From: Phoronis australis
Taxonomy: Eukaryota > Animalia > Phoronida
Assembly: GCA_002633005.1 (NCBI GenBank)
Contig: NMRA01000394.1
Span: forward strand, 186,001 to 250,000
Length of the DNA stretch: 64,000 nucleotides
Direction: 5' to 3'
Under the pieces are notes generated by a model, which saw only the letters and a list, made by a program, of their open reading frames with translations, had not been told where the DNA came from and did no database searches. Positions 805 through 63,200 of this stretch are shown here, piece by piece (position 1 is the stretch's first letter; each line of letters begins with the position of its first letter). Made by a program: the position numbers and the translations under genes.

Positions 805-3800
805 GTAACTTATTTACTAAGTTTATGATTAGCCATCAAGGTACAGTAGATATCAATCGCTAAAAAATTGCCCCTCAGTAGTCAGGTTTGTCCCCAAATC
901 CACGTCGATTGCATTCTCCTCAATATGAAACACAAGCTAGCTTTCATGAAGATACGCCAAATAATTTGTACTTAGCAACATTGGAAAAATGTAAAGCATA
1001 CAACATTGCCACCAGGAGGCACTTTGGAGCAGGAACCGTCCGATAGCCTGCACTATTTCTTGTCAAAAATAGACTTGCCAAATTCTACAAATGTCCTACA
1101 CAAGAGTTCATAAGATGCAGTTGCAGGCGCAAAGACGAAACGAAAATGCCACTCCTAGAAGCAGGATTCGGAAACGTAAGAAACTCATGGACAGTCGTCA
1201 TCTTCCCACAAGGAACACATTTACAAGCTTTCATCGTCGTCTTTAGCACGGTTTGGGCTATTGAGAGATGGACAGTAAAAGCGGCTACTAGGATTCATTG
1301 AATACTTCGAATCTATCTGAAAAGGAAAAGGTGGTGTCTTTTCCTTAACAGACATCCATTTCCAAATTTCATAAAATCCGTCCAACTCCGACGACACAAA
1401 AGAAAATGTTAAAAATGCACAAAAATTAACTAGGGAGCTCAGCGATAGTCGGATTTGTTCGAAAGTCGTCGCCATCTGTTGCCAATTTCATAGAAACCCA
1501 AAAAATTGCCACCAGAAGGAGTCACGGTAGTCGCAATTGTCCAAAATCATCACCAGCCCTCCTCTTCCCATTAGGAATTCTGTACAAATTTACATAACCG
1601 TCCTCAGTGTAATTTGACGGACTCGAAAACAGTAACATGTTGAATCCACCAGATAACAAGAAAGCAGTTTCGTCTCAATAGATACCTGCTAAATTTCACG
1701 AATGTCCGTCAAGGAAATACAAATATACAGGAGAAAACATGAAAAAAATAAAATTGGGGATACTCCAGTATTCAGGTGCGTTTGAAAATTGCTCACGCCG
1801 TCCTAGATATGACAGAGACACACATCTGTAAATTCTCACGAAGCTTCATCCAGGTTCTTTTGAGAAATACTGCTGCGGACGCCGGACAGACGGAAGGGTA
1901 CATAAAATCATAAAAACTTTATGACATTTGATTTAGTTGTTCTCTTAAGTTCAAATTAATAACTAAAAGTAGTTTGTCACTGAATAATAATGCTACAATA
2001 GTGTTCCGTTAGACTGCATTTCTCCCTGTTTTTTTAACCTAGTTATTCAGAAAAATTGGTCGTTTCAACAATAATTCACATATGTCTAGCAAAATTTATT
2101 ATATTTATTGTCAGGGAACTTCAGATACGAAATATACACCAAGCTGCAAAAAATATTTAGCAGAACCACATTTAACCGCATGGAAACTTGTTTACTTCTT
2201 ATCAGTCAGTGGTCAAAGATTATAGAGCTGTCACTCAAATCGAATTTCCCAGCAGGCATAGACCAGTTCCATATGTACCCTCGGTCCTTTCATTCACCAA
2301 GTCGCAATAATATGGAGTCAACGAAGTGTACATATAGGAAACAAAGTCAAAAAGCAGTTTTGACATTGAAGGAGTTGTGCTTCAGCAAGCAATTCGGCCG
2401 AATGCATCGACTTCGAATCGCCTCACGGTCTCTTTGTTACTTTTTTCACGAACAAAGCAAGTTGTGAAAAAGGATGAATTCATTGATTTGATCAGTAATT
2501 TGACATTTTGCTGTTTTTATCTCATGTTCACGGCGCGCTTTAGCAACCGACTCGATTTATGTTTCGATTTCGTGCTTGGTTTAGCATCAGTTTCCCCTGA
2601 GAGTGGTGTGTATCACAATGAACTGTTGACCTCCTGAACAGCTGACCCTCCCTTGACCTAGCTTGGCTCGAGGCATATTTACAAAAGTAAAACGTTTTAG
2701 TGATAATTAAGTTAATTACGCACTGCACATTCAGTTGACAATGCGAGAGAATGCTCAAATAGCGAACATGGTTAAGGCATGTAAAGTTGACCAAAAACAA
2801 GCTTTCACCGAATTTAGCGATAACTGTCACAATTTGAAGACTCGCAACGTTTTCTGCTTTTTCTCGGCTTCGCCAAATAGATCAAATTTGACCTTAGGAA
2901 CACAAGTTCTAGAAAACTACAAGGGGAATTTAACTAAAACTATCGAATTTCAATATCTTCCATCTATCTAAGAAACAAGATTTTCTTTTTAAACGCCTAG
3001 TAGTTTTTGAGGACCGTGAGATACATGAATACGGTTGCTATTTTTACAAAAATTCTTACGTTTTGCCATAATTTGGCATAGAAACAAAAAATGAGTAGTC
3101 GCAAATCCCTAAAAGCGTTTTCATGTAAATTGTGAAATTTCCATTTAAACGGTTTTCATTAAAATCCACCAAGGGGTTAGTTTGCTGTTGATGTACCTGC
3201 TGAAAATGAAATATTGACTTTAAAAAGGTGTTAACGTAATACTAATAAAGGCACCAAATAAAGGTTGAGATAACCTCATTACTATGTCCAAGCAACCCCG
3301 AGTAGATGTTAAATGATTTGGAAAGTTTTAAATATGCATCAGAGTAATATCGAAGGATTTTTGGCGATCGTTCACCTGATGACATCTTCCTACATGTACA
3401 TGTAAAAATACTTAATCCTGTCACGTGCACAAATAATCAGGAAAAATAACTTGTTCATTCTAAAGAACTCAAGGAAAATGTCATCGTTGAGTGGCGTGAC
3501 TGTCCGATTTCGAATAAAAATCCCTAAGCGCAATTGTTGTAAGTTCAGGGAGAACATCGTTAAGAAAATTGAAGGTTTTCCTACGCAATTTTTACCTTCT
3601 TGGGAAAACAAAACAAGTTTAGCATGTAAGGACAATTATGAGATCGATTTTATAAGCGTAAAAGACATTATTCTATATGATGATCCCTGAAGCACCGAAA
3701 CAGTTTAACGCTGCTACACAGACGTTACCTGCCAAATTTTTAATTCATCCTACTCGAAGTTGGAGAAGTGGTCTTAACTTGTTCCTATTAGGATGATTTT

Positions 3801-4285
3801 TGTGCTTGGAATAACCGGTTGGTGCCCGCCGAGTCGAGTTTTGTAGTTGTGTTTGGTGTCTAGTAGATAACTAACTGTCAGTTGTTTCCAAAACCGGTTC
3901 GAATTTGAGATATGAACAATTCAAAGCAAGTAGTAAACAGTTAAGTGGTCAAAAGCAAAATCTGGCCTCATTTTGGACAACATGTAGGTTCATTAAACAG
4001 CAGCGTCGGTTTTTCTGCTAATTTTCCAAGGATTCAGTTTTGGGTTAGTCACAATCGAACCTGGGAGTAATTGGTCCTAGGGTGGAACCGTTTAAATTTT
4101 GGCGAAAATGGCAGATCGAGAGGTTGGATAGGGTGCAGTGTCCGAAGCTTGTGAGACCAGGTACGGGACTGGGAGTTGGGGGTGACTCGCGAGCATATCA
4201 AATAACTACGCTCCCAAACTTTGTAAAACTTACGGTCCATTATTCTGTGAAGGAACTGCAACTTTCACTTATTTGTTCACCTTAC

Positions 4286-5324: not shown

Positions 5325-5680
5325 AGGATACCAAACCCAATTTGTCCTATAAACAAATACATGTAGCAAATACGACATTCTCGTCCAATTCCATGAAACA
5401 AAATAATGCTCTATAACCCTCAACCGTATACCCCCAAAAACTTGGAGGAAATTTTGAAAATGCTTAGTCGAAGTCTACAAAAAGGGCAAGCGTCACCTAA
5501 GCTTGCGAGGAATTGCAAGGAAACTTGGAGAAAGACCACCCGCAAAGAATCATAACAACCAATCTGTGATACAGAGAGTATTGCGCTTTTAGTTGATTAC
5601 TGCTTTTATCTTCCACGATTGGCCAAATGATGCATTGGCAGGTGACAGAACGAGGATTGGATGAAATCATTAAAACAGGT
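5325..5680 (+). repeat. Partial copy (one arm plus spacer) of the foldback element at 25790-26465
   Basis: Shared colinear blocks: TACCAAACCC, AAATAATGCTCT, GGCAAGCGTSACCTA, AAAGACCACCC, AGAACGAGGATTGG. Confidence 0.75.
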
Positions 5681-7010
5681 TTTGTGTAGTATACTTTTCA
5701 CCAAGGCCATGCCCTCCCAGTTAATCATATCTACACAGGTCTGCCCTCAAATTCGACTGCACAACTTTCGCCACAAAAATCGCTAGTAGCGTGACACCTT
5801 CCGGTCGGCATCCCTTATATATACCCCGTGGTTCACTCTTGTTGACAAGGTGACCTAATTAGCGTGCCAAAAGATATACGTAGCACGCTCGAGAGTCAAC
5901 GGGACACAATTTCATTTCCATTTAGCCCCGAAAAAATCTCATTGGACTAGCATCAGTCCAGCAAAACGTGCACTAGATTGGCCTTGGTCGTCTACCTACC
6001 CAAGTGATTTTGGTTATTTTAATTCAGGCAACGATTTCGAATCGATCGTGAAAATTCCGGAAATATCTGAAAACCAAATTATTACTATCCATCCAATAGA
6101 AAGTGTTCTAGGACGACGGACCGAAAGAAAATAACGATGGTTTGTTTAGTCTTGAGTTCGGTTGCTGCTTGAGACACAAAATTGGGTGGACTCTGGTCAG
6201 CAGACATCGCACTCACATGATGGAGTCTCCCAACATCCTTAGGTACACATATGCTGTATACTCATACCTAAGATTGATCCCTCCGGAACATTTGCTTTGG
6301 ACTCGGTGTGTATGTCACTGATTTTTCGAATACTGTCGATTAGTATATGAACGGCATTTATTGCGAACGTCAATTCATTAGTAAGACGTAACGAAATTGT
6401 TACCAGTATCTAACGTTACAGCTTATGTTATCTTTAAGTCATATACATGTATTAACCACGTTGAGACATCAATTTAACCGTAGACACTGGCACGTAAATC
6501 GGGTAAAAATCAATGCCTCGTCAACTTCTGTTACTATTCAGACCCAGTGACGTCATACAAACTGCACACTCGATAATTATTAACGGATACAGCGGCCGAC
6601 GAAGGTAAAAGCACTATAATATAGGCGTACATTAGCGTGCTTGGAATTTAGATATTCCCTAAAAATTAATTGCACCAGCTTTCAACAAGTGCCATTAAAA
6701 ATAGACCTGTAATTTGCCATAAAAACAACAAAACCAATAACGTATCACAGTCCACAAGAATTACACGAGAGGACGACGACCGGAAAGACCCACGTTCCTA
6801 GCGATAGTAAAAGTTCTCTGGTGCATTTTGCTAATTTGCAGATACAGTCACCACTGGGCTGCCGCAGCAATGACTATTTGCAATGATTTATCTAACTGGG
6901 CCTCGGACGAACTTTTTCTTTTGGATATCATTGATGAATAGGTGGCGTCGCGAGCATTTAATTGTAAACCATCGATCAAATATTATGGACCTATAACTGG
7001 AACAACTTAA

Positions 7011-7754: not shown

Positions 7755-9118
7755 TTAAATAATCAACTGAATAGTACAAAGAATGGATAAAACAAACACA
7801 TTTCCAGCTGAAGATACACGTCGATGCACCTGTACAAGAAAGCGGCTTTCACGCTTAGTACCAATCTGTTGACACAAACGTAAATGTGCAAAGCCTTTGA
7901 GCAAAAGTATCTTTTCCCAAAAAGTAATATTTCCAGTGTAGGGTCATGGACCTAAATATGCGCATACACTATGAGAAGCTCCCGTGGCAAGGTGACACTG
8001 GTGGCCTAATTGTTTTAAGAAGAAGTTTTGAAAGAAGAGTGAAGCTTTATCTTCTTTAAGTGACATTGTCGACAAGAAAAGTGATTCTCTGTGATGAACC
8101 TCAGCGGAATCGAATTTGCAACGGGGGTAAAGTGAATGACAGACAATTTTATAGCTCCTGTCAAAGCCTGAGAGTTCAGCACATTGAACATCAATCCCAA
8201 AACCGCGTTTCTGGCGGTAAAACTGACATCGTTCCTATAATGAAAGCATTCAAGTAAATATAAAAAAAAACAATTTAGAATGAAAAAACACGACTGGGTT
8301 CGTTTCCTAGTAGAATATAGGAAACTGTATGCGGTAGCAATTATAGATTGTTTAAGTGTAAAATAATGTTACCCTTGAAGGCGTTGTTGGTCATTTTGAT
8401 ATGTTTTGTTTATCCCAAGGACTTCCTGACTCTTGTTATTGGAATTTTATATGAACGGAATTAATTATAACCACATATATGTCATTGCAGACAGTGAGCA
8501 CCGTCTCTAGCCGGCTCAATAGAGACGGTGTAGTTCCTATAGGAGCTTCATCCACCGGAAGGTTTTCGGCGAATGATGCCTCCCACCGACTAAGTCACGT
8601 TGTTATAAATAGGTCTACCGTATCGTCACAGAGAGACACCTTAGGAGATATGGCGTCATACATGTACCACCTGCCGTGCGCAATGTTATAAATGACCAGA
8701 TACCGATTTTGGGAAGTGAACGAAGCACTGCTCAAAGAAAAAGTTTGATAACGGGGGGAGTATTTGTTTGAGTAGGAAGAAATGAAAGACATCGACGGCC
8801 TCCTAAGGTTTCCCTTTATTAGCATAAGTTATTTAGAACAACGTGACTTTGATGTATTAGTCAGTGTGAGGCATAATTCGCCGAAAATGTTCCGCCTTAT
8901 GAACCGCCTATACGTGTAGGAGCTACACCGTCTCTATTGAGCAAGCTAGAGTAGGTGGTCACTGTCCAGCGTCATTACTCAAGTCAAAACTAAACGACAT
9001 ATTCCTCAGCGCATTATATTATGATCAATCAAGCGTTAAACCAGTTGTTCATTTGAAATACACAATGTTTCGCAGAGACTCGCATGAGTTGATTTTTCTC
9101 TATGCATTAAATTCTCAC

Positions 9119-12318: not shown

Positions 12319-13808
12319 CTGAAAAAAATCAAGCAAATTAGACATGAGGTGTTACCGACAGCCAAGAGCCAGAGATGTGTTGTTCCAGTTTATGGCATAT
12401 CCTCAGTGATAACTATGCTATTTTCTTAGCTTTTGAGACCTGCACAATCACAAACTAGACCTTTAATAGGAGTTTCCATGTACACGTTCATGTGAACTTA
12501 GAGTACATGAAAGGACAAAGCTGAACAACAACACTGAGCAAACGTGAGCTCTGTTGCTTCAAAAACGACGGCTACAACGCGACTATTAAAACTGGGGAGG
12601 TAGATTGCTATTCGTAACTGTCACTAAAATCTAGTCTCTTTTACTTATCCCGTTCTGTCTGTCAAGGTTGTTCACTCACCAATCAACCAATTATGAGGCT
12701 ATTGGTTGGCATTACAAACATCGTAGTAACATTCAATGTAGATTGAACAGTGTATAAACAAATGTGTACACGTGGGCACACGTTTATATGTTCTTGATAG
12801 GTAAAGAGAGCCTATTCCTACACAACTCTCCATGATTCCAACGGATATCTCTTTCTGACAAACGAATCTCCTCCATGCATGATAGGACAACCTTCATACT
12901 GCTAAACTGCTTATTTTTTGTTTTTTAGAGTAATGGAATGTACGTCTTACACTCTAGCAATGAAGAGGATTTCAGTGCATTCTCGTTCCATTGGGCATTG
13001 CGGAAATAACCAGTCCAGTGTTACCAATCTTCCCAATATACACATGCATATACATATTCATATACTGGCTGTACTTCGGTAGCAAATTTTTCAATATGCA
13101 AACTTGATTAAATACACGACACTTGTCGTTAGTAACAGTCTTTATTCCGTTCCGTTCGTATCTTTGGAATAAAGTTCGACACTCAACAGAAAATGGGTGA
13201 AACAACTGACCAAGAGACATGATTATAAGACTCGCGATATTCTGAAACATACTTGTTTCATTCTCAAGTGTAAATAAAATGACACAGTTAATACCACGAC
13301 AGAGTAAAAGCTGGAGACATACATGTACACAGTGGGACACGACAGGTGTGAAATACTGCGAGTACTTCAAAAATCGTGAATGTTGTGATATTTCATGAAC
13401 ATTCTTTCACATGGCAAAGTGAATAACTTTGTAGTAGACGTTGCGAGATGGTACTTTCGTCAAGAATTGTTTGGCGAGCTCTTCAAGGTGTGTGATTTGG
13501 AGCAATGATTAGCCGTGTTTCGTAGAGCAAGGTACATTAAAGTATACTTGCAAGAAAATCAAATGCATTTCAAGCGAAGCACGTTATCACACTAGAGATA
13601 CACACTCGCATGTGTCTAGCGTCTACGGGACGCACCCCAAAAGTAAAAAAACTTTGTTAAAACGGGTCGCACAACTGCACCCTCTGGAAAGTACCTTCCG
13701 TCATGTTATTTTTTTGTTTAAAAAGAAGATACGCTGCAGTGATTGAACCCAGCTATTACTCAAATATTCATACGCCACAATATACTAAAAACAAGTAGGC
13801 CTACTTAC

Positions 13809-17644: not shown

Positions 17645-18078
17645 ACAGCTGGCACTGTTGTTGCTACAGCTGGCACTGTTGTTGCTACAGCTAGCACTGC
17701 TGTTGCTACAGCTGGCTCTGCTGTTGCTACAGCTGGCACTGTCGTTGATGCTGCTACTGCTGGTACTGATGCTACAGCTGATATTGAAGCTGCTACAGCT
17801 GGTACTGATGTGGATTCAGCTGGTATTGGTGTTGCTACAGCCGGCACTGATGTTATTACAGTTGGTACTAGTTTTGCTACAACTGGTATCCGTACTGCTA
17901 CAGCTGGCACTGTTGTTGCTACATCTGGTCTTGATGCTACTACAGCTGGTCTAGATGCTGCTACAGCTTGTAATGGTGTTGCTACAGATGGTACTTATGC
18001 TGCTGCAGCTGGTACTCATGTTGCTACAGCAGGCACTGCTGTTGCAAACAGCTGTCATTGATGCTGCTGCGGATGGTA
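17645..18078. repeat. 21-bp minisatellite, left part (consensus GCTACAGCTGGYACTGWTGTT)
   Basis: Directly visible tandem units. They explain the overlapping low-complexity ORFs 17477, 17533 and 17619. Confidence 0.92.
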
Positions 18079-46689: not shown

Positions 46690-48605
46690 ACAGCTTCATT
46701 CAAACCAGATTTTTTCCTGCCTTCACTTTTCTGTCCTTCACGCTATATCTTTGTAATTACCTATGTGTGAAGCATTGTTATTTTGTTTCTGACCAACAGT
46801 CATTTACTTCCCAATGTTGATTTTTAGGAAAATTCTTACAGTGGCCATGAAAAGGGATAAAAATCGCCAGAAACTCGTACCATTATTTAGGCACACTTTG
46901 TCCTGAAAAATGAATCGGAGGTGGTGTCACACATTCAAAATCCACGCCAACGTAATACATCGACAATTGTAATTACAAGAAAACGCAATATAACCATTAC
47001 GCTACCGGCACCCTCCCTTGCGCCCGTCCCGTGACCTCAAGCCAGCTTACCCACTCGAGTAGACAATACAAGAGATCAAATCACTCACCTAGATGATATC
47101 TGAGAGAATATTCGCCCGAGAGGTGGCGCGCCCACACTACTACTGCCTTCTCCAGAGGAGTTGGAACCACTAAACACTACAATTTCATGTGGTGCCAGGC
47201 CGCCAGTTCGCGTGAGACTTTGCGTTAATGGATCTTAACGCTGGGCAAAAATTCACTTTGACAGACGCAAACTCCATTTTAGTTTAAATATCTAACAGCT
47301 ATGAAATTTATTTCAACTTGCTCCGTACACAAACGAGAAACGGTTTCTGAGCTTGATGTTGGGACCTGTACTGTGTATGAATCGACCCGCCTTGACAAAG
47401 CAATTTTGCTAGTGCAAATGCATACCAATATCACCACTGTGAGTGGTGTAAATCAAAACACATTTTGACTGAAGGCGGGCTGAAATGAGATGTGATTGTA
47501 ATTGATGAAGGCAAATTGGGCAATGGTAATCTTTGACCATTATACCATTATTATTTGTGTTCAACATCTGAACTACTTTTGGACTACGTATAGTTACAAC
47601 AACTGTTCAGTCTCAGTTTTTATACAGTAACCAAACTGTAACATTACAGGATTAAGTAAAACAATATTATTTTGTTTTATGAGATACATAGTGGTATATA
47701 CATGTAGACATTCTTGATAGCATTTTGAAAAGCTGCTCTGTTTTAATCAAAGTGGTGACAATGAGGGAATGTTAAACGCACTAGCGCGTTATGTCGACTT
47801 AACACCGAACACAAACCTTACTATTCATAGGCTATAAAAAACGTTAAACAGTTTAAATGTTTAGAAAATAAATGTGCCAACGATAATAGATTGAGAGGCA
47901 ATAAAAATGCGAAACAATGGTAAATTTTAAGTCATAATAACAACTACCAGACGTTGAAAGACATGACGTAATTGTTGGCGGCGCTTACTGAAATCACAAG
48001 TGCAATATTACTATGTTTGCTTCATCAAATTGTTTTACATTAAAATTAGTTTTTTATGTGAAAAATCGTAAATACAATGTGAAAATTCAGCGGAGTTTCA
48101 GGGGCACGCCTAAGCGAATGATTGGACAAATACGTTGTGCATGTACTGTTTGTATAGCTTCGAATGATTTACGCCGAGAATGCCGACAGCGGATATCAGT
48201 TTTTCAAAAACAGCCTAATGATACTATATAAATAGAAAAAGGTAGGAATAATTGACAAACTCTTCACTAAAGTTGTTCCTAATTACCGAACAGTGTAAAC
48301 AGAACAATGCATTTTTAAACAAAAAATCTAAGAACTTGTGTAGGTTTATTCTTTTTGCCGCAGTTATTGATTTTTCTGGCGTAACACAAGGTTTATGGAT
48401 CGGTATTGTTCGTTTGAGTCGTTTGGTTACGAACATTTGTAGTATTGACGCCTTGACGGAGGCCTATTAAGACTTAAACGGACAATGGACAAGGTTGGAC
48501 GTACTCGCTGGGATTTTGGTCAGTGGTACCAGTTTTGCTTCCCATAAAAATTAGCGTTGGGAACGCGTAAACTATTGCTCAGGCCGAATCCAGATAGGTA
48601 TCGCC

Positions 48606-48675: not shown

Positions 48676-51600
48676 GTAAGATATCTTAGTCAGTACATAT
48701 AGACAGGTGTATGGCGAAGGGTGAATGTTTCAATATAGCGGGTTTCTTTGATCATTAGGGGTTTGGCTCAGTCAATTCCCTGCTAGTGCAAGTAAGAGAA
48801 ATAAATTAAGATCCAGTTCGCCATGCAGACTTCACAGACACTTTTATCCACGTGTAAGGTTTCGATACCTATTTCTTTGCTCAAACTGCAAAAGAACACA
48901 ATTTGACAGTCTCTTTTTTGACCACCGTAACTCGATACAGAAGTCAAAGTTGTGCTATCAGCGTCTAGTTTCTCGACCTGGCTGGCTGCAACGTCAACCC
49001 GCGCATATGTGCGAGTTCGCATATTAAATATTTGTTTAATACGTGCGCAAGTGTGAAAGCCAAACTAATATTTTTGGAATAGTTGTGCATCGAAAACTGG
49101 TGTACGCACGACTTCGTTTTCATATTTCTTTGTCGGCACAATTTGTATACGTGAGATTAGAAGATGTTGTCTCGTAAAATCTTTTATTTTCTGAATCTCG
49201 GCGCTTTAACAATATCCCTGAAAACGAAAGAAAAATATCGTGTGTGATTTATAGGCGTGTAAATATTTAGAGGCGCCAATAGTTTATTCTGGTTCAAGAA
49301 ACCTTGTTTTCTAGTAATCTCTGACAAATGACGACGTTGCCTCTGTCTGTCTAACGATGGGGATATTTCATTTAAGGATATGACAGAAAGTTGCCTAAAC
49401 GTGTTCAGAGCATTATCTATCAGAGATGGCTGGTCGAATTCAGGTGGAATTTTCAGTTACCTTACAAAGTTCTCTAAAGCTCTGTACACTTTAGCATGAG
49501 ATGTCATCAAATTTGGCCCTGTCAGGATTTTAAAAAACGTTCAAATGATGCATAAATCTAAAGCAAAGAAAACTTTGAAAATTGTAATAGCGTTTTTTTT
49601 TAATTTTTCACCATGAGGCCACCTATATTAATAAAGGTGCCCCGCTCTTCGACCGCCTTTCCGCGAGGCCCTCTATGTCAATATGGAGGGCCTCGCTTTT
49701 GACGCCCGAAATTTAATTTTATGCCTATTTCATTTTAATACGAATAAGTCAGTTTAAATAATAAGCTGTTACAAGCTTATCGTTCAGCTCCCACATAACC
49801 CTTATTCTTATTCACCCACTGCCCACTATATTTCCAACAAGGTCAGATATAACTTCCATTTTGTAATAGCTTTGCTTGGAATAATAAAATTGATGGTAAA
49901 AACAGCTTTGCTCAAACGTTGTCTTTGGCACAGTTTGTTATTAGAATATTCTACTCCCTCTAGTGGTGTAAATAACGAGTACAAAAACGCACAAAACCTA
50001 GTTCATTTACCTCATCCAGACATCATAACGAACAGGTGTAAATTATAGCTTAGCTGTGCTGCATGTCCAGGGTAGCCAGCTCGTAGTTGGTAAACAAATA
50101 GGTGGAAGGGATGTATCTATCGGAGTATAATCTTTCGTCAACTTGGCGAGAGTTCGCGTGAGCGTGTTCAGTTTCGTGTCATTATGCCCCATTCAGTCCC
50201 AGTCATTGGATCGCCTCTTGCTGTAAAAAGCAATTATGAGTTCCCAAAAAATCAGAAGTTTAAATTGGTCTCCAGTCAAAATTCCAACCGTGTTAAGTCT
50301 GTGGGTAATGCAGCTTGTCTCATTCGACTCCATTTTGGCTTCACCGTCATCAGGGTCTCGTTTCAAATTGCCAGCACATGTGCCCTCCCTGGTTTTAATC
50401 CGGTCAATCTTAGATATTGCGATGGCTGTTGATCTGGTTTAGTGGGAACGCTGACAATTCGTCACGGTTACTTACCTTAATTAACTGGCTCTTGGCAATG
50501 AGAAGGCAGTCTATTATTATTGGCATTAAAATTTCTTGCTTACCGGCGCCTCCATACACCATGGGCCAACTTAGAGTTATTTCGCTATTTTCCCAAAAGG
50601 AAATGGTGTCAGTGAAGGAAGGAACAGTAAGGAATGTTGATTTTGTGTTTCCTGTACCATCAGCTAAGTACTTGATTTCATGGTTTGCTTAATAACCGTC
50701 ACCGCCAGTACAGAGACCTTGGTGGTTGCTGCATGACGGTGACATCGTTCGTGTCGTTGACACTGGTGCGCTCAAAACTGAAGCTGGAATGATCGACTGA
50801 CTGATTTAACTACGACTGTCCACAAAATAATATAATACAACAAAACACAAGACAACATGCAATAAAATACGTACAATGAAACAGATAAAACTATGGAAGA
50901 AGTAAAACTTAAAATAAAAAGGATAATCGATGTACGTAAATAACTAGTTTCATCGTGGTCCGATCTATATATGAAGTTTATTAGTAAAGTAATAATGATA
51001 ACAAAAAGTTAAATGATGAATAGGTGCATAAATACATGTATACATGAAAATACAAATAAAAATATACCATTACGAAACCAATAAATAATTAGGTCTCAGT
51101 CGATACGCGTAACAGTGTCTCGAGGGATACTATTTCATATACTCCACTCTAGGTATGTTTTGTATTTATTCCATACACTTCGAATTCTAAGATTCTTTTG
51201 TTTTTTTTCCGCAGGTTTGTTTTTAATACTGTACCCACCTTATTTCGGGTGATTGTGGAAATGAACACATAATTATTGGTGGCTGATGAGATGTGATCCC
51301 CGTGTAAGGTTAAAGAATGTGCACGATGTGTGCACTCAAAACATTTCGAGTTCCTGAAGCATTGTAGGAAAGGTGTAAAATCAAAACTTGAAATAAATTT
51401 TTCAATTGATGGAATTTGAAAATCTATCTTTTACAAACGCAATGAGCGAAAAACTGTGGAATCGCAGTGCAAACTCATTTCCAAAACATGAAAACATTTC
51501 AAAACGTAAAGTTCCGTGAAGTGTTCCAATATAAGAAGTTGGTGTCGAATACATTGTGGACACTCAGTGCCAGGTTTTCTCCCGAGACGAGTGACCCGAG

Positions 51601-53279
51601 TTTTGTCTACTAAGGTCGGGTGCGATCATCCTTGGCTGGCGCCAGCACTTCAGTTTTTGAGCCCCATCCCTCAGCGGGATATCGTAAATATGCGTTTCAG
51701 ATGTTCAATTTGATATTGGATATTTATTGTTAAATTCATAATTCGCGCTTGCACAGACGCGACAAAGTTGCGTTTGGCTGTGCCTAAGCGAAATACGTTG
51801 TTGCAACTTGACTACCCAGAAATTTTACTTTGTGTAATTTAACTAGCCAAACACCATGATCCAGACAAATGCAGTTCTTTTGGCATCAGGAGAAAAATTG
51901 GCTATTTTTTACCGTTATCGAACGAATAATTCAAACTTCATTCAGGTTTTTTAATCATACTCGTTGAGCACGCTCCTAAAAAATATTTCCCGAAAATAAC
52001 TTCAAAGATCTTTGATTGCTCCTCGATAATACTGCTTAGCATTCTAGCCTCACACTTTTGAGCCGCCTGTCAATGCCTTGGTAATTCTAACTTCCGTCAC
52101 AATGTTTCCGCCATTTGTCATTTTAACGCCAATCAGGGCGCATTTCACCCGCTTTAACTGGCTAAAAACTGGAAACCGAATAAGTTGTCGACTCTCATGC
52201 AATCAGTCTCATGACATTCCCCATCGTGTAAATATTCCCCGTCCGTTACTATCCAAAACACTCAAACCACCAGTGGTTCAAGAAAACGAATTTTATGAGG
52301 TTCATAGTGTAAATCGTACGCTATCAGTTCACCCACGTCTGAAATGTTGAAACGTTATCAGATTGCCCATGTGCGCGTTTCAGATTGTGTGTCGGTGTAT
52401 CAAAGAATCACCGGGCTGGACGACACAGCAACTGAGCTCCTCCATGCATTGTACATGTACGTAATCTGTCATTAACGTGGCCTGAATCATGCGAGAGGGG
52501 GGGAGCAAGAAACGTCGTTTAGTTTATATTACATGTACATATTAACATGACTGGGTGATCAACAAAGGCATATACCGTTGACCACCAAAAAGTATAAGAA
52601 TGCAACTGCATATTAATAAGGAATTATAATTAAAACGATAGTAATAACACTAGAAAATATATTGCATTAGAATACAGTACAGTACAGTAGCGTAAAATAT
52701 AATACTTATTTATATAACTGAATGCAAGTTCTACCAAAAATTACATAACATCTCCCAAGAAACCAAACGTTTAAACACCATATAATTACATGGTTCGGGA
52801 ATGGTAACCATATTGCGAAGACGCATTGCAATCTAGTACGTTGCGTTGTGGTACTTGGTGGAAATGGAAACATGTTATTCGTGAAAGTAAAAATGGGCCT
52901 CGTTATGCCTCAAGACATATATCATAGTTGATTAAAATTCTCATCATGAAAATGAGTTTTGTTTTCCTTATTACATGTGATTGTTTCTGTGTGAGCCAAG
53001 TTTAATGACTAATTTTTAATATTTCTTAAGGATTGTAATCGGAACTACATGTATGTTCTTGACAAATGTCTCGAAAAGAATAAGACAGACAAATGAGCAT
53101 CTTAAATGCTTTCAAATTTGGTAAATAACTGTTGCCGGTTTTTTAATTGAGTGAAGTGTAAGCGAAGCTGTTGAGAACTTATAGCAACAATAGCGAATAC
53201 GAAGTAGTACCTTGTGACGTCACTGCTTGTGAGTTTCGTGGTCCTCAGCATCAACAGTGAGCTAATCTCCCAAGGTGTG

Positions 53280-53980: not shown

Positions 53981-55720
53981 AGGAGGGTGTCCTTTTTGAG
54001 AATATGAAATAGGGATATTGATGAATTATGAGCTACGTTACATTCATCAAATCCATGTCAAGATCGCATCATTTCACAGCGCAACTGAGTTAGTTTAGCC
54101 GGTGAGGGCCGCTGCGCCTCAGCCTCACCCGACGGAACCTCGCGCACAGCCGGTCGAAACTATATACATGTAGTCAGAACTAGAAGACCACCCTGTCCCT
54201 TTCAGTCTTCACAAAATCATAGAGTCCCATTCAGTCTTCGTAGAACAGCCGTTGGTCGCCGCAGCTCTGACCTGTGCCCCAGATGTTGTCCTTGCTTGAG
54301 AATGAGTCGTTAGTTAGATCCAAGAATGGCGATTGGAAGTGATTGCAATTGAGAACTGAGCTCATTTGTAAACAATGTACTCAATGTTTTAAGACAATTC
54401 AACTCTTACACACCCTTTGGATACTACATGATGGATACAAATGCAATACTTTATTCATGTCAGTTCCACCTCATTAGCAGACAATGGATTGTTCTGAAAC
54501 CTCCTCGACCCTCTCGAACCCCACACCCCTTGACCCCTTTGACCCACAAACCCCTGACCGTTCATTAAATGCTTACGACAAGCCTCTACACTTGTCACGA
54601 TCAGCTGTCATTTTATTCGCTCTGAAGCTGTGGCAAGTGACCAGTTCTTTGCCAAGACCCGACTGAACTAGTTAAGACTTGTTTAAATGCCGCAAGTGAT
54701 CCAAATCGAAAATCGGAACGGTGGTTTGTTGTCGCTTTGGACTATATAGGCTGCCTCTAGCCGCGTAAAGAGGTCCCATATGAAACTTGTCGATAATCGG
54801 TACAAACTGGAACTCTGAAAGCACTACCGAAATTAGTACGTTTCATGCCGAGATAAAAAGTGGGAGTATTTTGTATCCCATAAAAATCATAGCTGCATTT
54901 GAAATATCGGTACACAACTAAGGCCTCTTTCCTAGTGAAGCATTTAGCTAAGTTCAATCATCGAGATGTGGGAATTCTGTTTAGGCATCCTGGACATTAT
55001 TAAAAATCTTCCCCCTACAAGGGTACCGAGGCACGCTCAATTAAATTTCAATTGCTTGTACAGATCTCATAGCTTTGCGCAACAAAGAACGACACAAGAC
55101 ATAGAACAAAGGACATTGTGCAATCAATAAGACTTATGGAAGAAAGTTCTTCATGCACAATCTTCTTATGGAATTCATGAATTGAATTCCAATACCTGCA
55201 ACCAATCGATGTCCGATGTGCATACTCTAACTTTGAATCAAGATTTGTCGGAATCCTGGCATTGCCGGATTGCGATCGATCATTACGTAGACCTGATGAC
55301 GTGATGCAATGATCCGGCACTGGTGGGGTTGACATTATCCTGACTGTCTCAATTTAATAAAGGAATGAATGCAATAATTCCTTCGTAAAAGAACTCCAGT
55401 GCTCATGAATTACAAATAGGACCCGGGGTGTAATTATCATACTCGAAATACAGCTCGAAAATATTTTTATTTTTGTCATTTTCTATTCTACGTTAGTGCA
55501 AACTCAAGATAAGTTTCAATAGTTGTTTCGTCGGATACACATCAATCAATTTTGCAAACTTGGACGAGAAACTCGTATGGATCAAAAATTACCTAAGCTA
55601 GCACAGACACACTGACACTTATCTCGATTTCATGGAAAAGTAGAACAGAAAATCCAACGAATAATTTCGAGTTCAGATTTCGAGTTCAAAGATTAGACCC
55701 CGACCCTAGATGTTCATGTA

Positions 55721-57205
55721 TCAGGTGTCCTATAGGGTGCCATCGACAAGTTTACAAAGTACCACAGAGAAATACAAAAGATTATGGAAGTACTGTGTAA
55801 TTCAAACCAGCAGGGTGAAAAATACAATGGCAGTGTGACTTTCATCGTTTCAATCTGTGCTGGCATCTGTCAGTCAAAAAATGCCTGCCTGGGTCTCAGT
55901 TATGTTGTTTGTTATTGTCAGGTATGTATCCAAACCCGATCTGTCAATTATTTCCCTTTGTAAGGATGATTTTGAATGAAAGAGATCAAATTACTATTGA
56001 AGCGTGTTTCAAGGAGAAAGGGTGGGGCCAAAGAAGGTTCGTAAGCGGGTTCCCTGGAAAAGAGTGGAGTTGTGTCACTGTAAATAGACTTAATGCTAAA
56101 ATACGCAACACAAAGTCTGTTGTGCGTACATGTAAAAGTGGCACTGGGAGACCCAAGACTGCATGTTTGAAAGAAAATGATGATCGCGTTGAGGAATTGA
56201 TTCAATCACAGGAGGTCAACCAGGGAATCACAAATCTCTGAGAGAGGTCGCAAGCGAGCAAGTCTGCTGTGCAAAGAATGGCGAAAACACTGGAGCTAAG
56301 CACTTCAAAAGAATGTGGGTATGGGTACATGTATGTTAGAAGGACAAGAAAAACTCTATACTATTCAGCCACTCAGATGTGAAAAGAATCGTTTTCACTG
56401 ATAAAAAATATGTTACGCTATTTTTAGTCAGTTATAAGTTTAATAAGACATATACGCTAGAAATAGTTGAAATCGCCAAAACAATCATGTTTATGGGAAA
56501 TAAAAAGGAGAAATGGCAGCCTTCTCGACTCTGTTATGAGATTTACAGATTTCCTTAAAAAGTAATGGTATCCGCTGGAGTAGCCCGAGAAGGAAGAACA
56601 AACATTCATTTTATTGAATCCAACGTTAACAGTGGACTTTACATGCAGTTATTGGATGAAAATCTCCTGGATTGCAGGCGACTTTATCCTGGAAACAGCG
56701 TGTTCCAGCAAGATGAGGTTCCTTTACACAAGAGAAAGATATCCCCAGTTTACATCAAAATTCATTAAAAGGATGAATGGCATCCGATCAGTCTTGACTG
56801 CAGTTCAATCGACTATGCCATGTGGGACTCTCTGAAGACGAAAATTTACCGTCGAATGAGAGAAGAATTGAGCGAGCAGGGCTTAATAGACAGGACAATT
56901 ACATGTATGTCAATGGAAGAAATGTCGATGGAAGACATACGGAAAAACATTTCAGGTTGGAAGAATCGGCTTCGTGTAGTCGTGGGGGAAATCGAGGCCG
57001 CATTGATCATAGACTGACATAATCGTCAGTTTTCCTTTGATATTTTATTTGTGGCAACAATTTTTTAATTTGACAGGACTCCCGTAATTGGACACATTTG
57101 TTGGTGATATCCTAAGATTTATCTGTAAGAATTTTTTAAAAAATCAGTTTATTTGTTGCTGAGAAATTACTTGTCAAAAACTGACTATTTTTAGGACACC
57201 TGATG
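55721..57205 (+). mobile_element. Decayed Tc1/mariner-superfamily DNA transposon (DD37D/maT-like)
   Basis: Terminal inverted repeat TCAGGTGTCCTA (55721) / TAGGACACCTGA (57192-57203), flanked by TA dinucleotides and enclosing a broken transposase. Confidence 0.88.
55966..57017 (+). pseudogene. Frameshifted transposase pseudogene
   Basis: HTH region plus GRPK, then IVFTD (first Asp), VMVSAGV, FQQDEVPLH (second Asp) and EWHPISLDCSSIDYAMW (degenerate WPPxSPDLNPxDYxxW, third Asp), spread over several frames with stops. Confidence 0.88.
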
Positions 57206-60200
57206 TATGCAATTTCTGTTTTTGACGTGAATACTACCAGCATATCTGCTTGTCATGTGATTAAACCTGTCATATAAACTTCCTTGCTGACTGGCATGTT
57301 TAATAAAAATGACTGTCAAGCGATTGTCAGTTCCCATGAACTATGAAAAACGAGCAGAGTTTTTAAGAGCTCCCAAGGTCCTCATAATAAGAAATTCCCT
57401 GCACTAGTTGTCAAGATCTTACAGTCTTCGTTAAAAAACATGTAACGTGTTATTAATAATCAAATAGTCCCCAGTGACAGCAGTGAATAAAAAACGAACC
57501 TCCTACTAACGGCGATTTACAAAACGGGAGCACAAGTTTTAGGAGTAAACATGTACATGTAGTTAATCTAGAATATTCTCCTTTCGCCCAGACCTCGGCC
57601 CATCGGACTGATTTACTTTCTGTTGAGAATTGAACTTTTCAAATAATATGTCATTTCTCAACTGAATTCAAAGGTAATTTGGAAACTGATGCGCTTGATT
57701 TCACAAGAGGCATCGTGGCGATAACTTAAGCGCAAAAAAATGACGCTTCTCGCTCTCAAGTCAGCATTTATTTATCGTTGTTTTCTAGTTTACGAATAGG
57801 TTATCGAATACTAGGTCTTACCAAAACCAAACCACAGCATCTTTACAACCAATTGGGCCTCTTAAGATACGTAAGCCCCTCGTATACATGCAAACTGTGA
57901 TCACGAGCTTCGCTTATAGTGCATGGCGAAATCTCGCGAAAATTTGCGGGATCTCGTTGTTCTTGCTAGAAACTATCTATACGGAAGGCAGACTTGTAGA
58001 TTGTTTCAAAACATGGACATGTTTGTTTAATATAAGAAATGATTGAGCAGGTGTTAGCACGCTTGAATGCGTCATATTTTTAGTATCATTTCACAATCTG
58101 CTGTATTTGGATTGTTACAACTGAATGTTTCGATGTACTGTAAATAAATGAGGGTATAACAAGCGTTATGTTACTGTCATCATTAGCCTTTCTTCCGTCG
58201 ACTGTGGTTATTACCGCCACTGTTTTTTGGCTAATGGCAGTTTTGTTTAATGGTAAGTTAGTGTATATTATTCTAGTTAAGTGCATTACAATTTCAATGT
58301 GATAGACGATAAAAATGCAAAATACATAGTTCGGTTAGATTCCTTTAAAATCCCAAAGAGTATCCGGGCGTGTGAGGATAAAACTAATTATACACGACGG
58401 GAACTCTCAGAAAGGTCCTTTTGTCTGTCACACGCTAAACACGAGTACAAATTAGATTTCAATGCGTGTGAAATGATAGTCCTTACAAGATTTCCAAACA
58501 TATTTTTGGGGATCACAGCACAAAATAGTCTTTGCCCAGACATTATATTTTCGTTGATTTTGATTTAAATATCACATGCCAGAGCGATTATTGTTGACTA
58601 CAACATGACAAGCTTTCAGCGCACATGTATCTTTGAGAGACACACTTGTAAGCGGTGTCTAAAGTTTAACTGTTTCTATTTTCTTCACGTCACCACGGCT
58701 AATTATTCACGATTGGTTACGTGTCAATTGACAGCGTGGTCAAAGATATAGCGTAATAGTTTGCAACTTGTGAAATTGAATTGATTTGAGGTAGAAACAC
58801 TATTTGCATTCCCGATTAATTAATAACGCTTTGTCAATATTCGTGTTTTCCCCACACGTCTCTGTTCATACTCATAGCCTCTATTGTTTGCAATGCATGT
58901 ACGGTAGTGATTGTATCTCACACTCACACCCAATGACGTCCTCTGTATACTAATATCACAGATGTCTGAGCCTCTGGCAGCCATATTCGCTTATTATGAG
59001 ACCCGTGTATGCTTTTCTTGGACAATAATCGACTGTAAACAACATTTATGCATCTAAATTTAACACGAGGTCTAGCTGTTGTTGTTTTACAATAGTTTCC
59101 AGTCACATTCACTGTGCCTCATAGAAGGTGGCCAGCCAGATAGCTGTATGAAGACTGTAGTCAAAATATTTAGTATACAGTTTTGCGCCAAGACTACATA
59201 GAAGGTTGTTATTAAGACAACCGTGAAAACAATTGGAGTGGAACACTCTATGACTAACAGTTTTCAAATATATTTATCTAACTTGGTGGCCATCTTCCTC
59301 CAAATTTAACAATTTGCCCGTTTTTTGAGAAAATACTTTTCTGTTTTATAATGTTTCTCAAGACTCCTTGTAAATACATTTTAGTGTATAGATAGGCAGC
59401 GGTTAGACAGGAAATAGGTGGCCCAATCCAATCTCACCGCTGCCTATCAATATGAAACTTACTGGCCAATATCAAAATTGCTCATAATTTCCAAAATGAA
59501 TCGTATAATTTGTTGCTTTCTCGTTGCCAGGAAGACAAAATCTAGAGACGCATCCAGTTTACAGTTCTATGGTCTAATATGGGCACTTCTTAAAAACGTG
59601 TGTTAAAATTTCTTGAACTTCTTCACAAAAAGTATACACAGGATAAGTTGAGATTCCTGTTTCAAATAAATAAGAGTTTGTGCTGAGCATTCTATGGTCC
59701 ATTCTATATTGAAGCCACGTCTTGAGAGAAATCCGTTATAATTATTTGAATAAACAATTACCCAACATACAGCAGCGTCACTTTTGCGCTCAGACGTCTA
59801 CTTATAATGCGATTTTGGTAATCTACGGTGCAAGCCAAAAAAGGTGTCGCATGCTTATATTTCGCTTGCTTTCATCTTTCAACGACGAATCAAGTCATCC
59901 CTCACGCTCATATCCTTGACCTAAAGACCTCAGATATAAATGTCTTCGTGCGATCGTAATTTCGACGTGTCCAGGCTAACATCGAAAGTGTAAAACTAAG
60001 TCGTACATGTTACCCTAGAATTGCGTATCAAACATATTAACCTGCTTAAGTCGAAACTGCGATCGCGTGAACACATTTATCTGCAGAAATAACACGGCAC
60101 AGAAATCAAGCCCTTCAAAAGAACTTATTCACTCGAAGATTCAACTTGTTACTATTCACTTGTCACTCTGCTATTCGTATTTTTGTGAATTCGCTGAATA

Positions 60201-63200
60201 AAGCATTATCTTGGCTGACTGAGTACATGACGTCATAAGGTAAAAACTGAGATCAGAAGATGGCAGACGATTTGAGTCGTCGTTGCTAGAGAAAGGTAAA
60301 AAGAGGCAAAATACAACTGTGAGACCGTTCTCGGTTTCCTAAACTTGTGAAGGGGATTTGATTTGGCTAGTTCTAACACAATAAACAAGAATTTCCCTCC
60401 CATTCTTTCGGTTTATGTCCAGGCCTTCATCTATGTTTAAGAGCTGAGTATTGGCTAATACAAATCATACCTTATCATTCCAAGATTTGAGTATTGGTTT
60501 GATTTCCACCTTAGTACATGTAGGTGTGTCGCACTGTATAGATTGTTGAAATACTCAAAATCTTAGTAATTCTCGATTTTCGGAGCAGTACTAAGGAAAG
60601 CGTGACCACCAATGATTAGTGAGAAATGTATCGAGTCATTTTGCAAGAACTACTAGAAAATCGTTACCTAACTACCTAGTTAAAATAGTCAAACATTACA
60701 GAACCTTGACTCCACGCCTTGATACCTACATGTAGAGTAACATAGCTATTCACTGCCGGCAAATTTTCTAAAATTGTAATCTTTAACTGAATATCATTTG
60801 ATTTAAAAAGCCTGTTACACTTCATTCCCTCCAAGAGGCACGTTTATGTAGGTGCGTGTGTCGGCTTGCTTACGGAATCAACACGTACCCAAAATCGTGA
60901 GTTATGGGGATGATCGGGGGCTTTTCCAAAAATACGTAAAGAAATTCTGCATCGCGTGTATTTTTTATATTTGCATTTGTATATGCAAAAATCAACGAAA
61001 GTTCGAGTATTAGACGCAGTGGAGTACTTTTCGTTCTTGTACACTTTATCAGTTTGTCTGCACAGGAATGCGAAATTGGACTTCAAAGTATGTTGCATGC
61101 TTCTAATTCACTGGGCGGGCATTAAAATTCAAAGCGAGGCTCACTGCGATAAGTAAACAGAGCGGAAGTTGACGTTGCGTGAGTTAAAATGGCTGGTCTT
61201 TCGAGTCCAACCTGGATATTAAATCTTAAAAATGGGTCAATAATTAACCGCAGAGACGTAGAGAAATGCATCGGAGAACAAGTCAATGAACCAAAGAGGT
61301 GTCTGACGAAAGGATATTTTTTTCGGAAAACTTGGTTCGAAACATGAAAAGTATAAATTACGGCGATCGTATTACAAGATTAGGTATATGATGAATGCGG
61401 GATTACGTTTCTTCTTGTAAATTGTTGATAAACATGCTTTCTACACAAACCAGGTCATCTGGTCGTATTTTTGACAAGCTGAAGGTATATTTGACAGCGG
61501 TGGTTCATCACATTTTGCTGTTATGTGCAAGTCACATCTGTTTAATTTGTTGATTAAGAATATTAACATCAAGCATAGCCAAGGTCCTGCAGAGTTGGGG
61601 ACTACCGGGACTAACAACTGAGTTGTCTTTAACCTGCAAGAATGACTGGTGTTATAACTATTATTTTTAGTAAAATATAAACTAGGCTGGTAATTGAAGC
61701 TAAAATTTATTTGACTATTTGGTTTTAATAATTCTTACATCTATTTCATGTGTTCGGTTTCAAATATCAATCTGGACCAAGATGAATTTTAAAATTAAAA
61801 CACCTAGTTTGTTCGTTCAAAGCGTGACCTGAAAAAATAACCCATCTCGTTTTAGAGCTCAATTTTAATTACCTGGATAGAACAAACATAATTATCACGT
61901 TCCTTCAGAGGCCTCGTTCATCCGGAGGGAAAGGTGCCTGTGCCTTCTGAGACGGGAATTTTTCGCCAAATGAGGAGGAAATTCTACCTCCCGATCACCA
62001 TCAGTAGCACCCCCGCCCTTTTGCAAGCTCTGTCTCAAGTAGCATTTTGTGCTCTTTCAAATTGTCACCCGTGTAGTTACGTGATTTGAACTTCGGGGGG
62101 AAATTTTCAATCACTGTAGGAGAATTTGTAGGCCTCGTGAGGGGAATTTCGCGTGATTTTTCAATAATTTTGATAGGAGAGTAGGGCCGATATTCGGCCC
62201 CAAAATCGAGGAATTGTGGCTGTCCTTTTTGAAAACAAATGCATCATGTTTCAGCCCTTAGTCATGAAAGCACAGCCTGGCTGGACGAAGATTCACCTGT
62301 CGTTGCCATGCTCGACAACCGAGATGCGACAAAATGTGATAAAATTTTCGAAAACATTTATAAATTTTACCTGGAAATATTTTCTTCGGCGCGGCGTATG
62401 GCAACGACCCACAATGCTTTCGAATCTCAACGTCTTTAGGGATTGTAAAAAAGACAGTTGAATGTCCGTAATTTTTTATCGCCATTTGAACAACGGTGAA
62501 CACAACTAAGCCGATTAGCCATTGTAGCTGTAGTAGTGAGCATCGTTTTGGAGTGCACTTCTTGTCTACGTGAATTAGCTGTATAAATATGGGGCAATGA
62601 GTACGTTCTCGCACTAAAAATAGAAATAAAGCCAGAGTATTAATGATTTACCAACCAAATCTGTGTCTCGATAATACGTGCATCATCTCACAGCGTTACA
62701 CGGTATATCCGCTTCGTCTCGACCTCAGCCACCAGCCCCAGTACCACGAGCACCACAGGGTCGAAATTAAATGTAGTAGGATGCCCAGTCACTTTCAGTT
62801 TTTCTTAATACTAAATAGCTCAATATACAATACCATATGTATGTCAGGTCGGCAGACATCCACGACGGGTAGTGAAATTTTGGAGTTGTTAACGCTCGTA
62901 GTAGTGAACATTCGAGTAATGAACTTTCGACGTTATAACTTGGCTCGATCATTTAACAATTACCGCCGGTAGATCATTCTGCGGCAGTTACCAGAGAACC
63001 GCTGATAACGTTTAAAGGAGATGGTCCTATTGATAACGAATTAAGACTGGACGTTTTACGAGATAGGCATGTTTTTCAGATTTAAATTGTCAGTTTCTAG
63101 TTTCATGAATTGAGGCAACCTTGTTTTCTTTCTTAGTTCTTTTGAAAAGTGACTCCGGTTACAATCACACTCAAACGCACATTTTGATAATAACAATATA

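What the first reader, a model, noticed from the sequence alone, without database searches (positions are those of the whole stretch)
3391..60734. Window saturated with TACATGTA octamers, several demonstrably 6-bp insertions at TA sites (mass Tc1/mariner-type excision footprints)
Seen: at least 28 exact TACATGTA copies counted by eye, starting at 3391, 3397, 5358, 6444, 8659, 13320, 17277, 21371, 23437, 29962, 32743, 34177, 34866, 38549, 42559, 46118, 47699, 51033, 52452, 52530, 53046, 54165, 56127, 56326, 56900, 57554, 60515 and 60727. About 2 are expected if the window is roughly 62% AT (rough hand estimate). Internal controls show insertion rather than substitution. The repeat copy at 141 reads GATC-TA-CTTTTCTCGA, while its sister at 46111 reads GATC-TA-CATG-TA-CCTTTCTCGA. 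The repeat copy at 5348-5376 is exactly CATGTA longer than its three homologous arms near 25831, 26400 and 53618. Established: Tc1/Tc3-type elements with CA...TG ends duplicate TA and can leave a TA-CA-TG-TA footprint after excision and end-joining. Inference: about one scar per 2.3 kb, far more than resident elements, points to a hyperactive insert-and-excise process that leaves a stereotyped, frame-preserving +6 bp mutation carrying a new ATG across the genome.
Basis: partly seen in the sequence, partly recalled or inferred. Interest (0 to 1): 0.85.

Follow-up and report, generated by a model that had tools for sequence, protein, structure and literature searches.

The report
Transposon exit scars at TA sites
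The eight-letter word TACATGTA is about fifteen times too common in this animal DNA and, where older copies allow a comparison, is mostly a six-letter insertion at a TA site, most likely the scar left each time a cut-and-paste jumping gene (not found here) left that site.

Summary
Observation confirmed: 28 TACATGTA at the stated places against 1.5-2.1 expected. Six sites could be compared with homologues. Two are clean CATGTA insertions at a single ancestral TA (46118, 56127), two add six bases less exactly (5358, 56900), one adds seven (8659) and one is complex (56326). None arose by substitution. Flanks resemble the AT-alternating target of Tc1-like elements (p about 4e-4). Excision footprints are therefore likely (0.8). 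The common Tc1/Tc3 scars TACATA/TATGTA show no excess (44 vs 43). No donor element and no polymorphic site was found. Slow accumulation (one fixed scar per ~300 substitutions) would suffice, so hyperactivity is not needed. The octamer-only spectrum fits an element with CAT ends whose 3-base overhangs pair through AT (inferred). Related transposons with CCG ends in metagenome loci sit with TA-CCG-TA and TA-CCGG-TA insertions. The scan reported this motif before in other genomes. My searches found no paper describing it as mass scars in animals.

The parts
3391..3404 (.). Two overlapping octamers (TA-CATG-TA-CATG-TA), a chained scar
   Evidence: no homologue to compare
5358..5365 (.). Octamer in a repeat arm; six bases longer than three sister arms
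   Evidence: 6-column gap against 3 of 3 arms, with adjacent substitutions
6444..6451 (.). Octamer (nAChR intron)
   Evidence: not compared
8659..8666 (.). Octamer in a repeat; net seven bases longer than its one sister, which has a single TA
13320..13327 (.). Octamer (nAChR intron)
   Evidence: not compared
17277..17284 (.). Octamer (nAChR intron)
   Evidence: not compared
21371..21378 (.). Octamer followed by a partial second unit (nAChR intron)
23437..23444 (.). Octamer
   Evidence: not compared
29962..29969 (.). Octamer
   Evidence: not compared
32743..32750 (.). Octamer
   Evidence: not compared
34177..34184 (.). Octamer
   Evidence: not compared
34866..34873 (.). Octamer
   Evidence: not compared
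38549..38556 (.). Octamer
   Evidence: not compared
42559..42566 (.). Octamer in low-copy DNA
46118..46125 (.). Clean CATGTA insertion at a single TA in a very high-copy repeat
   Evidence: sister at 144; consensus of the loose ends of 3835 reads of run X5 has one TA (agreement 0.88)
47699..47706 (.). Octamer in single-copy DNA
51033..51040 (.). Octamer followed by TACATGAA
52452..52459 (.). Octamer in single-copy DNA
52530..52537 (.). Octamer in single-copy DNA
53046..53053 (.). Octamer in single-copy DNA
54165..54172 (.). Octamer
   Evidence: no row for it shown
56127..56134 (.). Clean CATGTA insertion at a single TA in the dead transposase gene (two extra codons)
   Evidence: 126 of 141 covering homologues show +2 residues here; family consensus of 55 reads (X5) and 6 contigs (X1) has one TA
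56326..56333 (.). Octamer at a complex rearrangement in the dead transposase: 15 family bases replaced by 10; origin ambiguous
   Evidence: loose-end consensus of 7 contigs of X4; protein test confounded by a frameshift
56900..56907 (.). Octamer adding two codons in the dead transposase
   Evidence: +2 residues in 5 of 7 covering homologues, +4 and +1 in the other two
57554..57561 (.). Octamer preceded by a partial unit (chained)
60515..60522 (.). Octamer
   Evidence: no row for it shown
60727..60734 (.). Octamer
   Evidence: no row for it shown
55721..57203 (+). Dead DD37D-type IS630-Tc1-mariner transposon that hosts three octamers; serves as a control, probably not the donor (ends TCAGG...CCTGA)
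   Evidence: its closest intact relative P0001 has 37 residues between the second and third D; end consensus is blurred (agreement 0.6)
18077..18886 (.). 810-bp inverted-repeat element between two TA, inserted in a 21-bp array; right end CTG-TA, left tip degraded; the only resident CA...TG element recognised
45974..46662 (.). Very high-copy repeat that hosts site 46118 (X5 depth about 2900 against 2-3 in single-copy bins)

Best explanation
The octamers are six-base insertions at TA that are most likely excision scars of a TA-targeting cut-and-paste transposon of the IS630-Tc1-mariner kind, which was not found in this window. Steps: (1) the element inserts at a TA in AT-alternating DNA and duplicates it (flank signal shown; cause inferred); (2) it is cut out a few bases inside its ends, leaving 3' overhangs on both flanks (established for the superfamily); (3) end-joining keeps part of the ends, giving TA-CATG-TA (product shown, route inferred). 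I commit to ends reading CAT...ATG and 3-base overhangs: their last two bases, AT, pair with each other, while a full 3-base overlap would be all mismatch, so only the octamer would form (inferred; about 0.45 absolute, against 0.3 for CA ends with 2-base overhangs and 0.05 for CATG ends). (4) Scars are small, would be nearly neutral in introns and repeats, and pile up slowly; a scar restores TA sites, so chains can grow (inferred).
For: 28 vs 1.5-2.1 expected. Ancestral single TA at 46118 (3835 reads) and 56127 (55 reads, 6 contigs; 126 of 141 proteins). +2 codons at 56900 in 5 of 7 proteins. 6-column gap at 5358. The same hexamer sits in unrelated flanks with no CATG in the ancestral state. 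Flanks: TATAT identity 111 of 270 positions vs 84.6 at random TA (p 4e-4), purine-pyrimidine alternation 168 of 270 vs 136.5 (p 5e-5); 377 other TA-N4-TA words do not show it; ZB and SB prefer ATATATAT (PMC7913693, passage). Spectrum: no excess of TACATA/TATGTA (44 vs 43-47) or TACATTA/TAATGTA (10 vs 14-15). Outside control: in 39 metagenome loci a DD37D family has CCGGG ends, and both (2 of 2) private 6-base insertions are TA-palindrome-TA, one TA-CCGG-TA, plus one TA-CCG-TA. There TAGGCCTA (15 vs 0.4) and TAGGCTA/TAGCCTA (15 vs 5) are enriched but TAGGTA/TACCTA is not (22 vs 21), as 3-base overhangs predict.
Against: No donor with CAT or CATG ends in the window (2329 end pairs scored), and no genome was held to search. 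No allele with a full element and no polymorphic site seen. Only 6 of 28 sites could be compared, and only 2 are clean at nucleotide level. In tested systems TACATGTA is a rare product (Tc1: PMC3520976 passage citing Eide and Anderson 1988; not among the eight SB footprints of bioRxiv 10.1101/659086). In rice only 8 of 94 excisions were perfect and most were messy (PMC4423477, passage). The one-mismatch excess lies in the outer TA positions, not the core (core 19 vs 17-18), which plain neutral decay does not predict. The CCGG evidence is single events (TACCGGTA 2 vs 0.7, not significant). The flank scores were chosen after seeing the flank counts.
Confidence: 0.8

Rival explanations
1. Variant of the best explanation: ordinary CA-ended Tc1/Tc3/pogo-type elements leave 2-base overhangs, and this host's germline repair fills in both instead of overlapping them, giving TA-CA-TG-TA.
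For: CA...TG ends are present in the window (18077-18886). TACAGTA/TACTGTA are mildly raised (21 vs 11-13; 19 after collapsing one tandem run, p 0.02-0.06). taCATGta is a recorded rare Tc1 footprint (PMC3520976, passage).
Against: Predicts TACATA/TATGTA as well (78% for Tc1), but their excess is at most 11-15 (upper 95% bound) against 26 excess octamers. It needs a repair bias that has not been shown.
Confidence: 0.3
2. A non-excision process writes the hexamer: for example abortive transposase attack on TA with reversal, or a break-repair route that adds a fixed palindrome at AT-alternating DNA.
For: No donor found. Scars far outnumber recognised resident TA elements (26 excess against 2). 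The product is unusually uniform.
Against: No such process is known to me (recall). The outside loci pair CCG ends with CCG and CCGG inserts.
Confidence: 0.12
3. A transcription-factor site kept by selection (Irx-type homeodomain, or MYB as in Phytophthora).
For: TACATGTA is bound by PsMyb37 (PMC11134190, abstract and passages) and is cited as the preferred Irx site (PMC3520976, passage).
Against: The sites are insertions, lie in a dead transposase and in high-copy repeats, and are spread evenly (KS p 0.18). Later use of some scars as binding sites is not excluded.
Confidence: 0.04
4. Mutational by-product: CpG decay of TACGCGTA, or slippage in purine-pyrimidine microsatellites.
For: The word alternates pyrimidine and purine and lies in alternating flanks. 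4 of 56 ends adjoin another CATG against 0.3 expected.
Against: Sibling decay products TATGCATA, TATGTGTA and TACACATA are at background (1, 0, 2). CpG observed/expected is 0.94. Ancestral sites hold no CATG to duplicate. Slippage may explain only the chained copies.
Confidence: 0.02

Closest known systems
Tc1/Tc3 excision footprints of C. elegans (bioRxiv 10.1101/2022.08.01.502254, passages; PMC3520976, passage citing Eide and Anderson 1988, which I could not read)
   Same: Insertion at TA, TA duplicated, terminal CA/TG bases kept; taCATGta is a recorded rare product.
   Different: There TACATA/TATGTA dominate; here they show no excess and the octamer is the only clear product, fixed at 0.4 per kb.
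Sleeping Beauty and ZB footprints (PMC6943129, PMC7913693, PMC5224488, PMC8151067, bioRxiv 10.1101/659086; passages)
   Same: 3' overhangs repaired by end-joining; footprints equal to the terminal 2-4 bases; ATATATAT target preference as in the flanks here.
   Different: Canonical scars are the 7-mers TACAGTA/TACTGTA, only mildly raised here.
Minos six-base footprint (recalled; lead from earlier finding e1-7787227; primary paper seen only as a reference in PMC6943129)
   Same: Six bases added at TA.
   Different: By recall its core is not a palindrome and comes in two forms; not tested here.
Phytophthora promoter motif-1 / M93 / AM-20 (PMC3520976, PMC3597505, PMC11134190; passages)
   Same: Identical word, very abundant; its sibling M94 is TACCGGTA.
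   Different: Treated there as a transcription-factor site, with the footprint idea dismissed on abundance; here it is shown to be an insertion. The oomycete origin was not tested by me.

Membership tests
IS630-Tc1-mariner excision footprint | Ancestral state is a single TA; derived state has TA on both sides of added bases | tested here: met
   Clean at 46118 and 56127, compatible at 5358, 56900, 8659, ambiguous at 56326; 22 of 28 not comparable
IS630-Tc1-mariner excision footprint | Flanks carry the AT-alternating target preference | tested here: met
   p 4e-4 and 5e-5 against random TA; absent at 377 other TA-N4-TA words
IS630-Tc1-mariner excision footprint | Added bases equal the termini of a resident element family | tested here: inconclusive
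   One CA...TG element; none with CAT ends; the resident DD37D family ends in CCTGA-TA by a blurred consensus; no genome held
IS630-Tc1-mariner excision footprint | An allele or orthologue carries the full element at the same TA | not testable with these tools
   Only one other sample, at 2-3x depth, with most rows hidden by repeats
Canonical Tc1/Tc3 footprint spectrum | TACATA/TATGTA are the main products | tested here: not met
   44 vs 43-47 expected
Canonical Sleeping Beauty footprint spectrum | TACAGTA/TACTGTA are the main products | tested here: not met
   Excess about 8-10 against 26 for the octamer; flank score not significant
Selected transcription-factor site (Irx, MYB) | Arises by substitution and is conserved in regulatory DNA | tested here: not met
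   Insertions in dead repeats; even spread; binding itself not testable

The most novel reading that the evidence does not exclude
One rule explains a family of over-represented eukaryotic DNA words. Transposons that cut three bases inside their ends leave a TA-palindrome-TA octamer whenever the last two overhang bases are self-complementary (CAT gives TACATGTA, CCG gives TACCGGTA, GGC gives TAGGCCTA), and leave a 7-mer as well only if the first and third bases pair. Such scars are then a dominant class of small insertions in many invertebrates, a fossil count of past jumps, and the source of ready-made Irx/MYB-type binding sites such as Phytophthora M93 and M94.
Probability: 0.3. Interest if true: 0.7.

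Novelty: new variant of a known kind. Interest (0 to 1): 0.45.

Why it matters
Excision footprints are known from laboratory mobilisation, one site at a time. Here they appear as the most frequent 8-mer of a natural animal sequence, on about 0.6% of TA sites. If they are scars, they record germline excision repaired by end-joining, give a dated count of past transposition that outlasts the elements, and warn that a top 'motif' in motif scans may be mutational. The overhang rule makes a sharp prediction of the donor's ends. The interest is tempered because the mechanism class is known, the donor is missing, and this scan has already reported the pattern in several other genomes.

Tried and rejected
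No whole genome is held, so no genome-wide count or donor search. Searches for TA-CA and TA-CAT inverted-repeat ends in the window gave one credible element and no CAT-ended one. The resident DD37D fossil was considered as donor because its right end reads CACCTGATG-TA; the family's read consensus ends CCTGA-TA (agreement 0.6) and TATCGATA occurs 0 times, so it was set aside, not excluded. Polymorphism: runs X1-X4 are one sample, possibly the source of the window; X1's listed long pieces show no gaps, which is not independent. X5 is too shallow, and high-copy repeats crowded out the rows. P0001 found no relatives in viral or prokaryote contigs. The first nAChR exon search found nothing; the second gave 55-69% hits across many animal phyla, so no taxon was assigned. 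Nucleotide alignment of the fossil to the metagenome loci was too distant to inform. TACAGTGTA/TACACTGTA (5 vs 1) did not stand out among 2772 words and lack the flank signal. Site 56326 might be native His-Val coding beside other indels; unresolved. Eide and Anderson 1988 is not held.
Full report
Setting. The window is animal DNA, 40% GC, with exons of a nicotinic acetylcholine receptor subunit on the minus strand at about 21663-21469, 13853-13809, 12348-12202, 9378-9118 and 4553-4284. No genome is held. Five runs were listed for the stretch: four of one sample and one shallow Hi-C run of another.

The observation. TACATGTA occurs 28 times at exactly the listed places and is the commonest 8-mer. 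With the motif masked, Markov orders 1-5 expect 1.5-2.1. It is the strongest of 2772 TA-N(1-6)-TA words. The sites are spread without significant clustering (KS p 0.18). Four of 56 ends adjoin another CATG against 0.3 expected, so short chains exist.

Insertion or substitution. Six of 28 sites could be compared. At 46118, in a repeat of roughly a thousand copies (depth about 2900 against 2-3), the sister at 144 and the consensus of 3835 reads have a single TA. Three sites lie in a dead DD37D-type transposon at 55721-57203. At 56127, 126 of 141 covering homologous proteins lack exactly two residues there, and 55 reads and 6 contigs of the family show one TA. At 56900, 5 of 7 homologues lack two residues; the others differ by 4 and 1. 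At 56326, 15 family bases are replaced by 10 (7 contigs), and the origin is ambiguous. At 5358 a 6-column gap opens against 3 of 3 arms, with neighbouring substitutions. At 8659 the one sister is 7 bases shorter and has one TA. None of the six shows the word arising by substitution in colinear sequence. The ancestral states hold no CATG, so the hexamer is not copied from its flanks.

Target signature. Read outward from the TA and pooled over both sides of 27 sites, the flanks favour T/C, A, T, A, T. TATAT identity is 111 of 270 against 84.6 (p 4e-4), and purine-pyrimidine alternation is 168 against 136.5 (p 5e-5). The 377 other TA-N4-TA words average no higher than background. Single positions are only marginal (p 0.016-0.06 at three of eight), and the scores were chosen after seeing the counts. 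ZB and Sleeping Beauty prefer ATATATAT (PMC7913693, passage).

Which geometry. Tc1/mariner elements are cut a few bases inside the non-transferred strand, and end-joining leaves the terminal 2-4 bases (PMC6943129, passage). Tc1 leaves TATGTA or TACATA 78% of the time (bioRxiv 10.1101/2022.08.01.502254, passage). taCATGta is called rare (PMC3520976, passage) and is not among the eight SB footprints (bioRxiv 10.1101/659086, passages). In the window TACATA/TATGTA number 44 against 43-47, TACATTA/TAATGTA 10 against 14-15, and TACAGTA/TACTGTA 21 against 11-13 (weaker after collapsing a tandem run). So the canonical spectra are not met. An element with CAT ends and 3-base overhangs would give only the octamer, because the last two bases pair and a full overlap does not. 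This is inference.

An outside control bears on it. The closest intact relative of the fossil (P0001) brought in 39 metagenome loci, whose elements begin TA-CCGGGTGG in 20 of 22 ends listed. Among insertions private to one locus against three or more partners, both 6-base cases are TA-palindrome-TA (TA-GGCC-TA at L006:401 against a 98% identical sister; TA-CCGG-TA at L016:652), and one of six 5-base cases is TA-CCG-TA (L004:722). In the 86 kb of non-redundant sequence TAGGCCTA is 15 against 0.4, TAGGCTA/TAGCCTA 15 against 5, and TAGGTA/TACCTA 22 against 21, which is the pattern that GGC ends with 3-base overhangs predict. Against this: TACCGGTA (2 vs 0.7) and TACCGTA/TACGGTA (4 vs 5) are not enriched there, no GGC-ended donor was sought, and TACATA/TATGTA is raised in those loci (71 vs 48-55) without TACATGTA (3 vs 1.7).

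The donor. Not found. The window holds one CA...TG element between two TA (18077-18886) and no CAT-ended pair among 2329 scored. The fossil's family appears to end CCTGA-TA (blurred consensus), and its predicted scar TATCGATA is absent.

Rate. One-mismatch neighbours number 52 against 36-39, a ratio to perfect copies of about 0.5-0.6 (95% range about 0-1.2). This allows a mean decay of about 6-7% or a steady state. At steady state one fixed scar per about 300 substitutions maintains 0.4 per kb. A burst is possible but not required. The excess lies in the outer TA positions rather than the core, which is unexplained. Polymorphism was not testable.

Rivals. CpG decay and slippage fail because sibling words are at background and CpG is not depleted. 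A selected binding site (PsMyb37, PMC11134190, abstract and passages; Irx as cited in PMC3520976) does not explain insertions in dead repeats, though later use of scars is open. A non-excision writer remains at about 0.12. In rice most excisions are imprecise (8 of 94 perfect; PMC4423477, passages), so the uniformity here needs the pairing route or a repair bias.

What is in print. Ten searches (listings, with passages read in PMC11134190, PMC3520976, PMC2872659, PMC3597505, PMC5224488, PMC8151067, PMC4423477, PMC7913693, PMC6943129 and two preprints) found the word as a Phytophthora promoter motif (M93; its sibling M94 is TACCGGTA) and as a rare Tc1 footprint. None of the listings described mass fixed scars in an animal. 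The library lacks most subscription papers, I saw only part of the longer result lists (40 of 425), and no supplements were read. This scan's index holds 62 findings with the word in at least 7 genomes, several read as the same scars in urchin, coral and mollusc DNA, and 10 on TAGGCCTA. These are unchecked notes and not independent support.

Verdict. A real feature: six-base insertions at TA, likely transposon excision scars (0.8). It is a new variant of a known kind, with the donor missing and the end geometry inferred. Interest 0.45.

Noticed in passing
window 4284-21663 (-): Five exons of a nicotinic acetylcholine receptor alpha-type subunit (alpha-7/9/10-like hits, 55-69% identity); six octamers lie in its introns.
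   Followed up: partly
window 17477-19400: 21-bp coding-like array (period 21, about 20 copies in the first block) reading as a long Thr/Ala/Gly/Val-rich frame on the plus strand, split by the 810-bp TA-flanked element.
   Followed up: partly
window 18077-18089: The left tip of the 810-bp element reads TA-CAC-ATA-GTG-TA, itself a TA-bounded near-palindrome, in place of the ten bases expected from the right end.
   Followed up: no
window 55713-55720 and 57204-57207: The dead DD37D element's left TA is the second TA of a one-mismatch octamer, and its right end is followed by TG-TA; it may have landed in an older scar, or its tips have mutated.
   Followed up: partly
L006:401, L016:652, L004:722, L013:4515: In other hosts' DNA: clean TA-GGCC-TA, TA-CCGG-TA and TA-CCG-TA insertions, and a chained TAGGCCTAGGCCTA; TAGGCCTA is about 30-fold enriched in these loci.
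   Followed up: yes
window 29-718 and 45974-46662: Very high-copy repeat with a hairpin near one end and a tRNA-like stretch at the other (by eye; ARAGORN did not call it); also other high-copy repeats at 44656-45319, 53288-53951 and 61256-61900.
   Followed up: no
window 52673-52689: Tandem TACAG run (TACAG three times, then TA), possibly a chain of 7-mer-type scars or slippage.
   Followed up: no
window 20071-20163 (-): ARAGORN calls one tRNA-Thr(AGT) of 93 bases, inside an nAChR intron; may be a pseudogene or false call.
   Followed up: no
window 14484-16526, 25790-26464, 8490-8966, 39571-39729: Further inverted-repeat elements without recognisable TA-CA ends; families not identified.
   Followed up: partly
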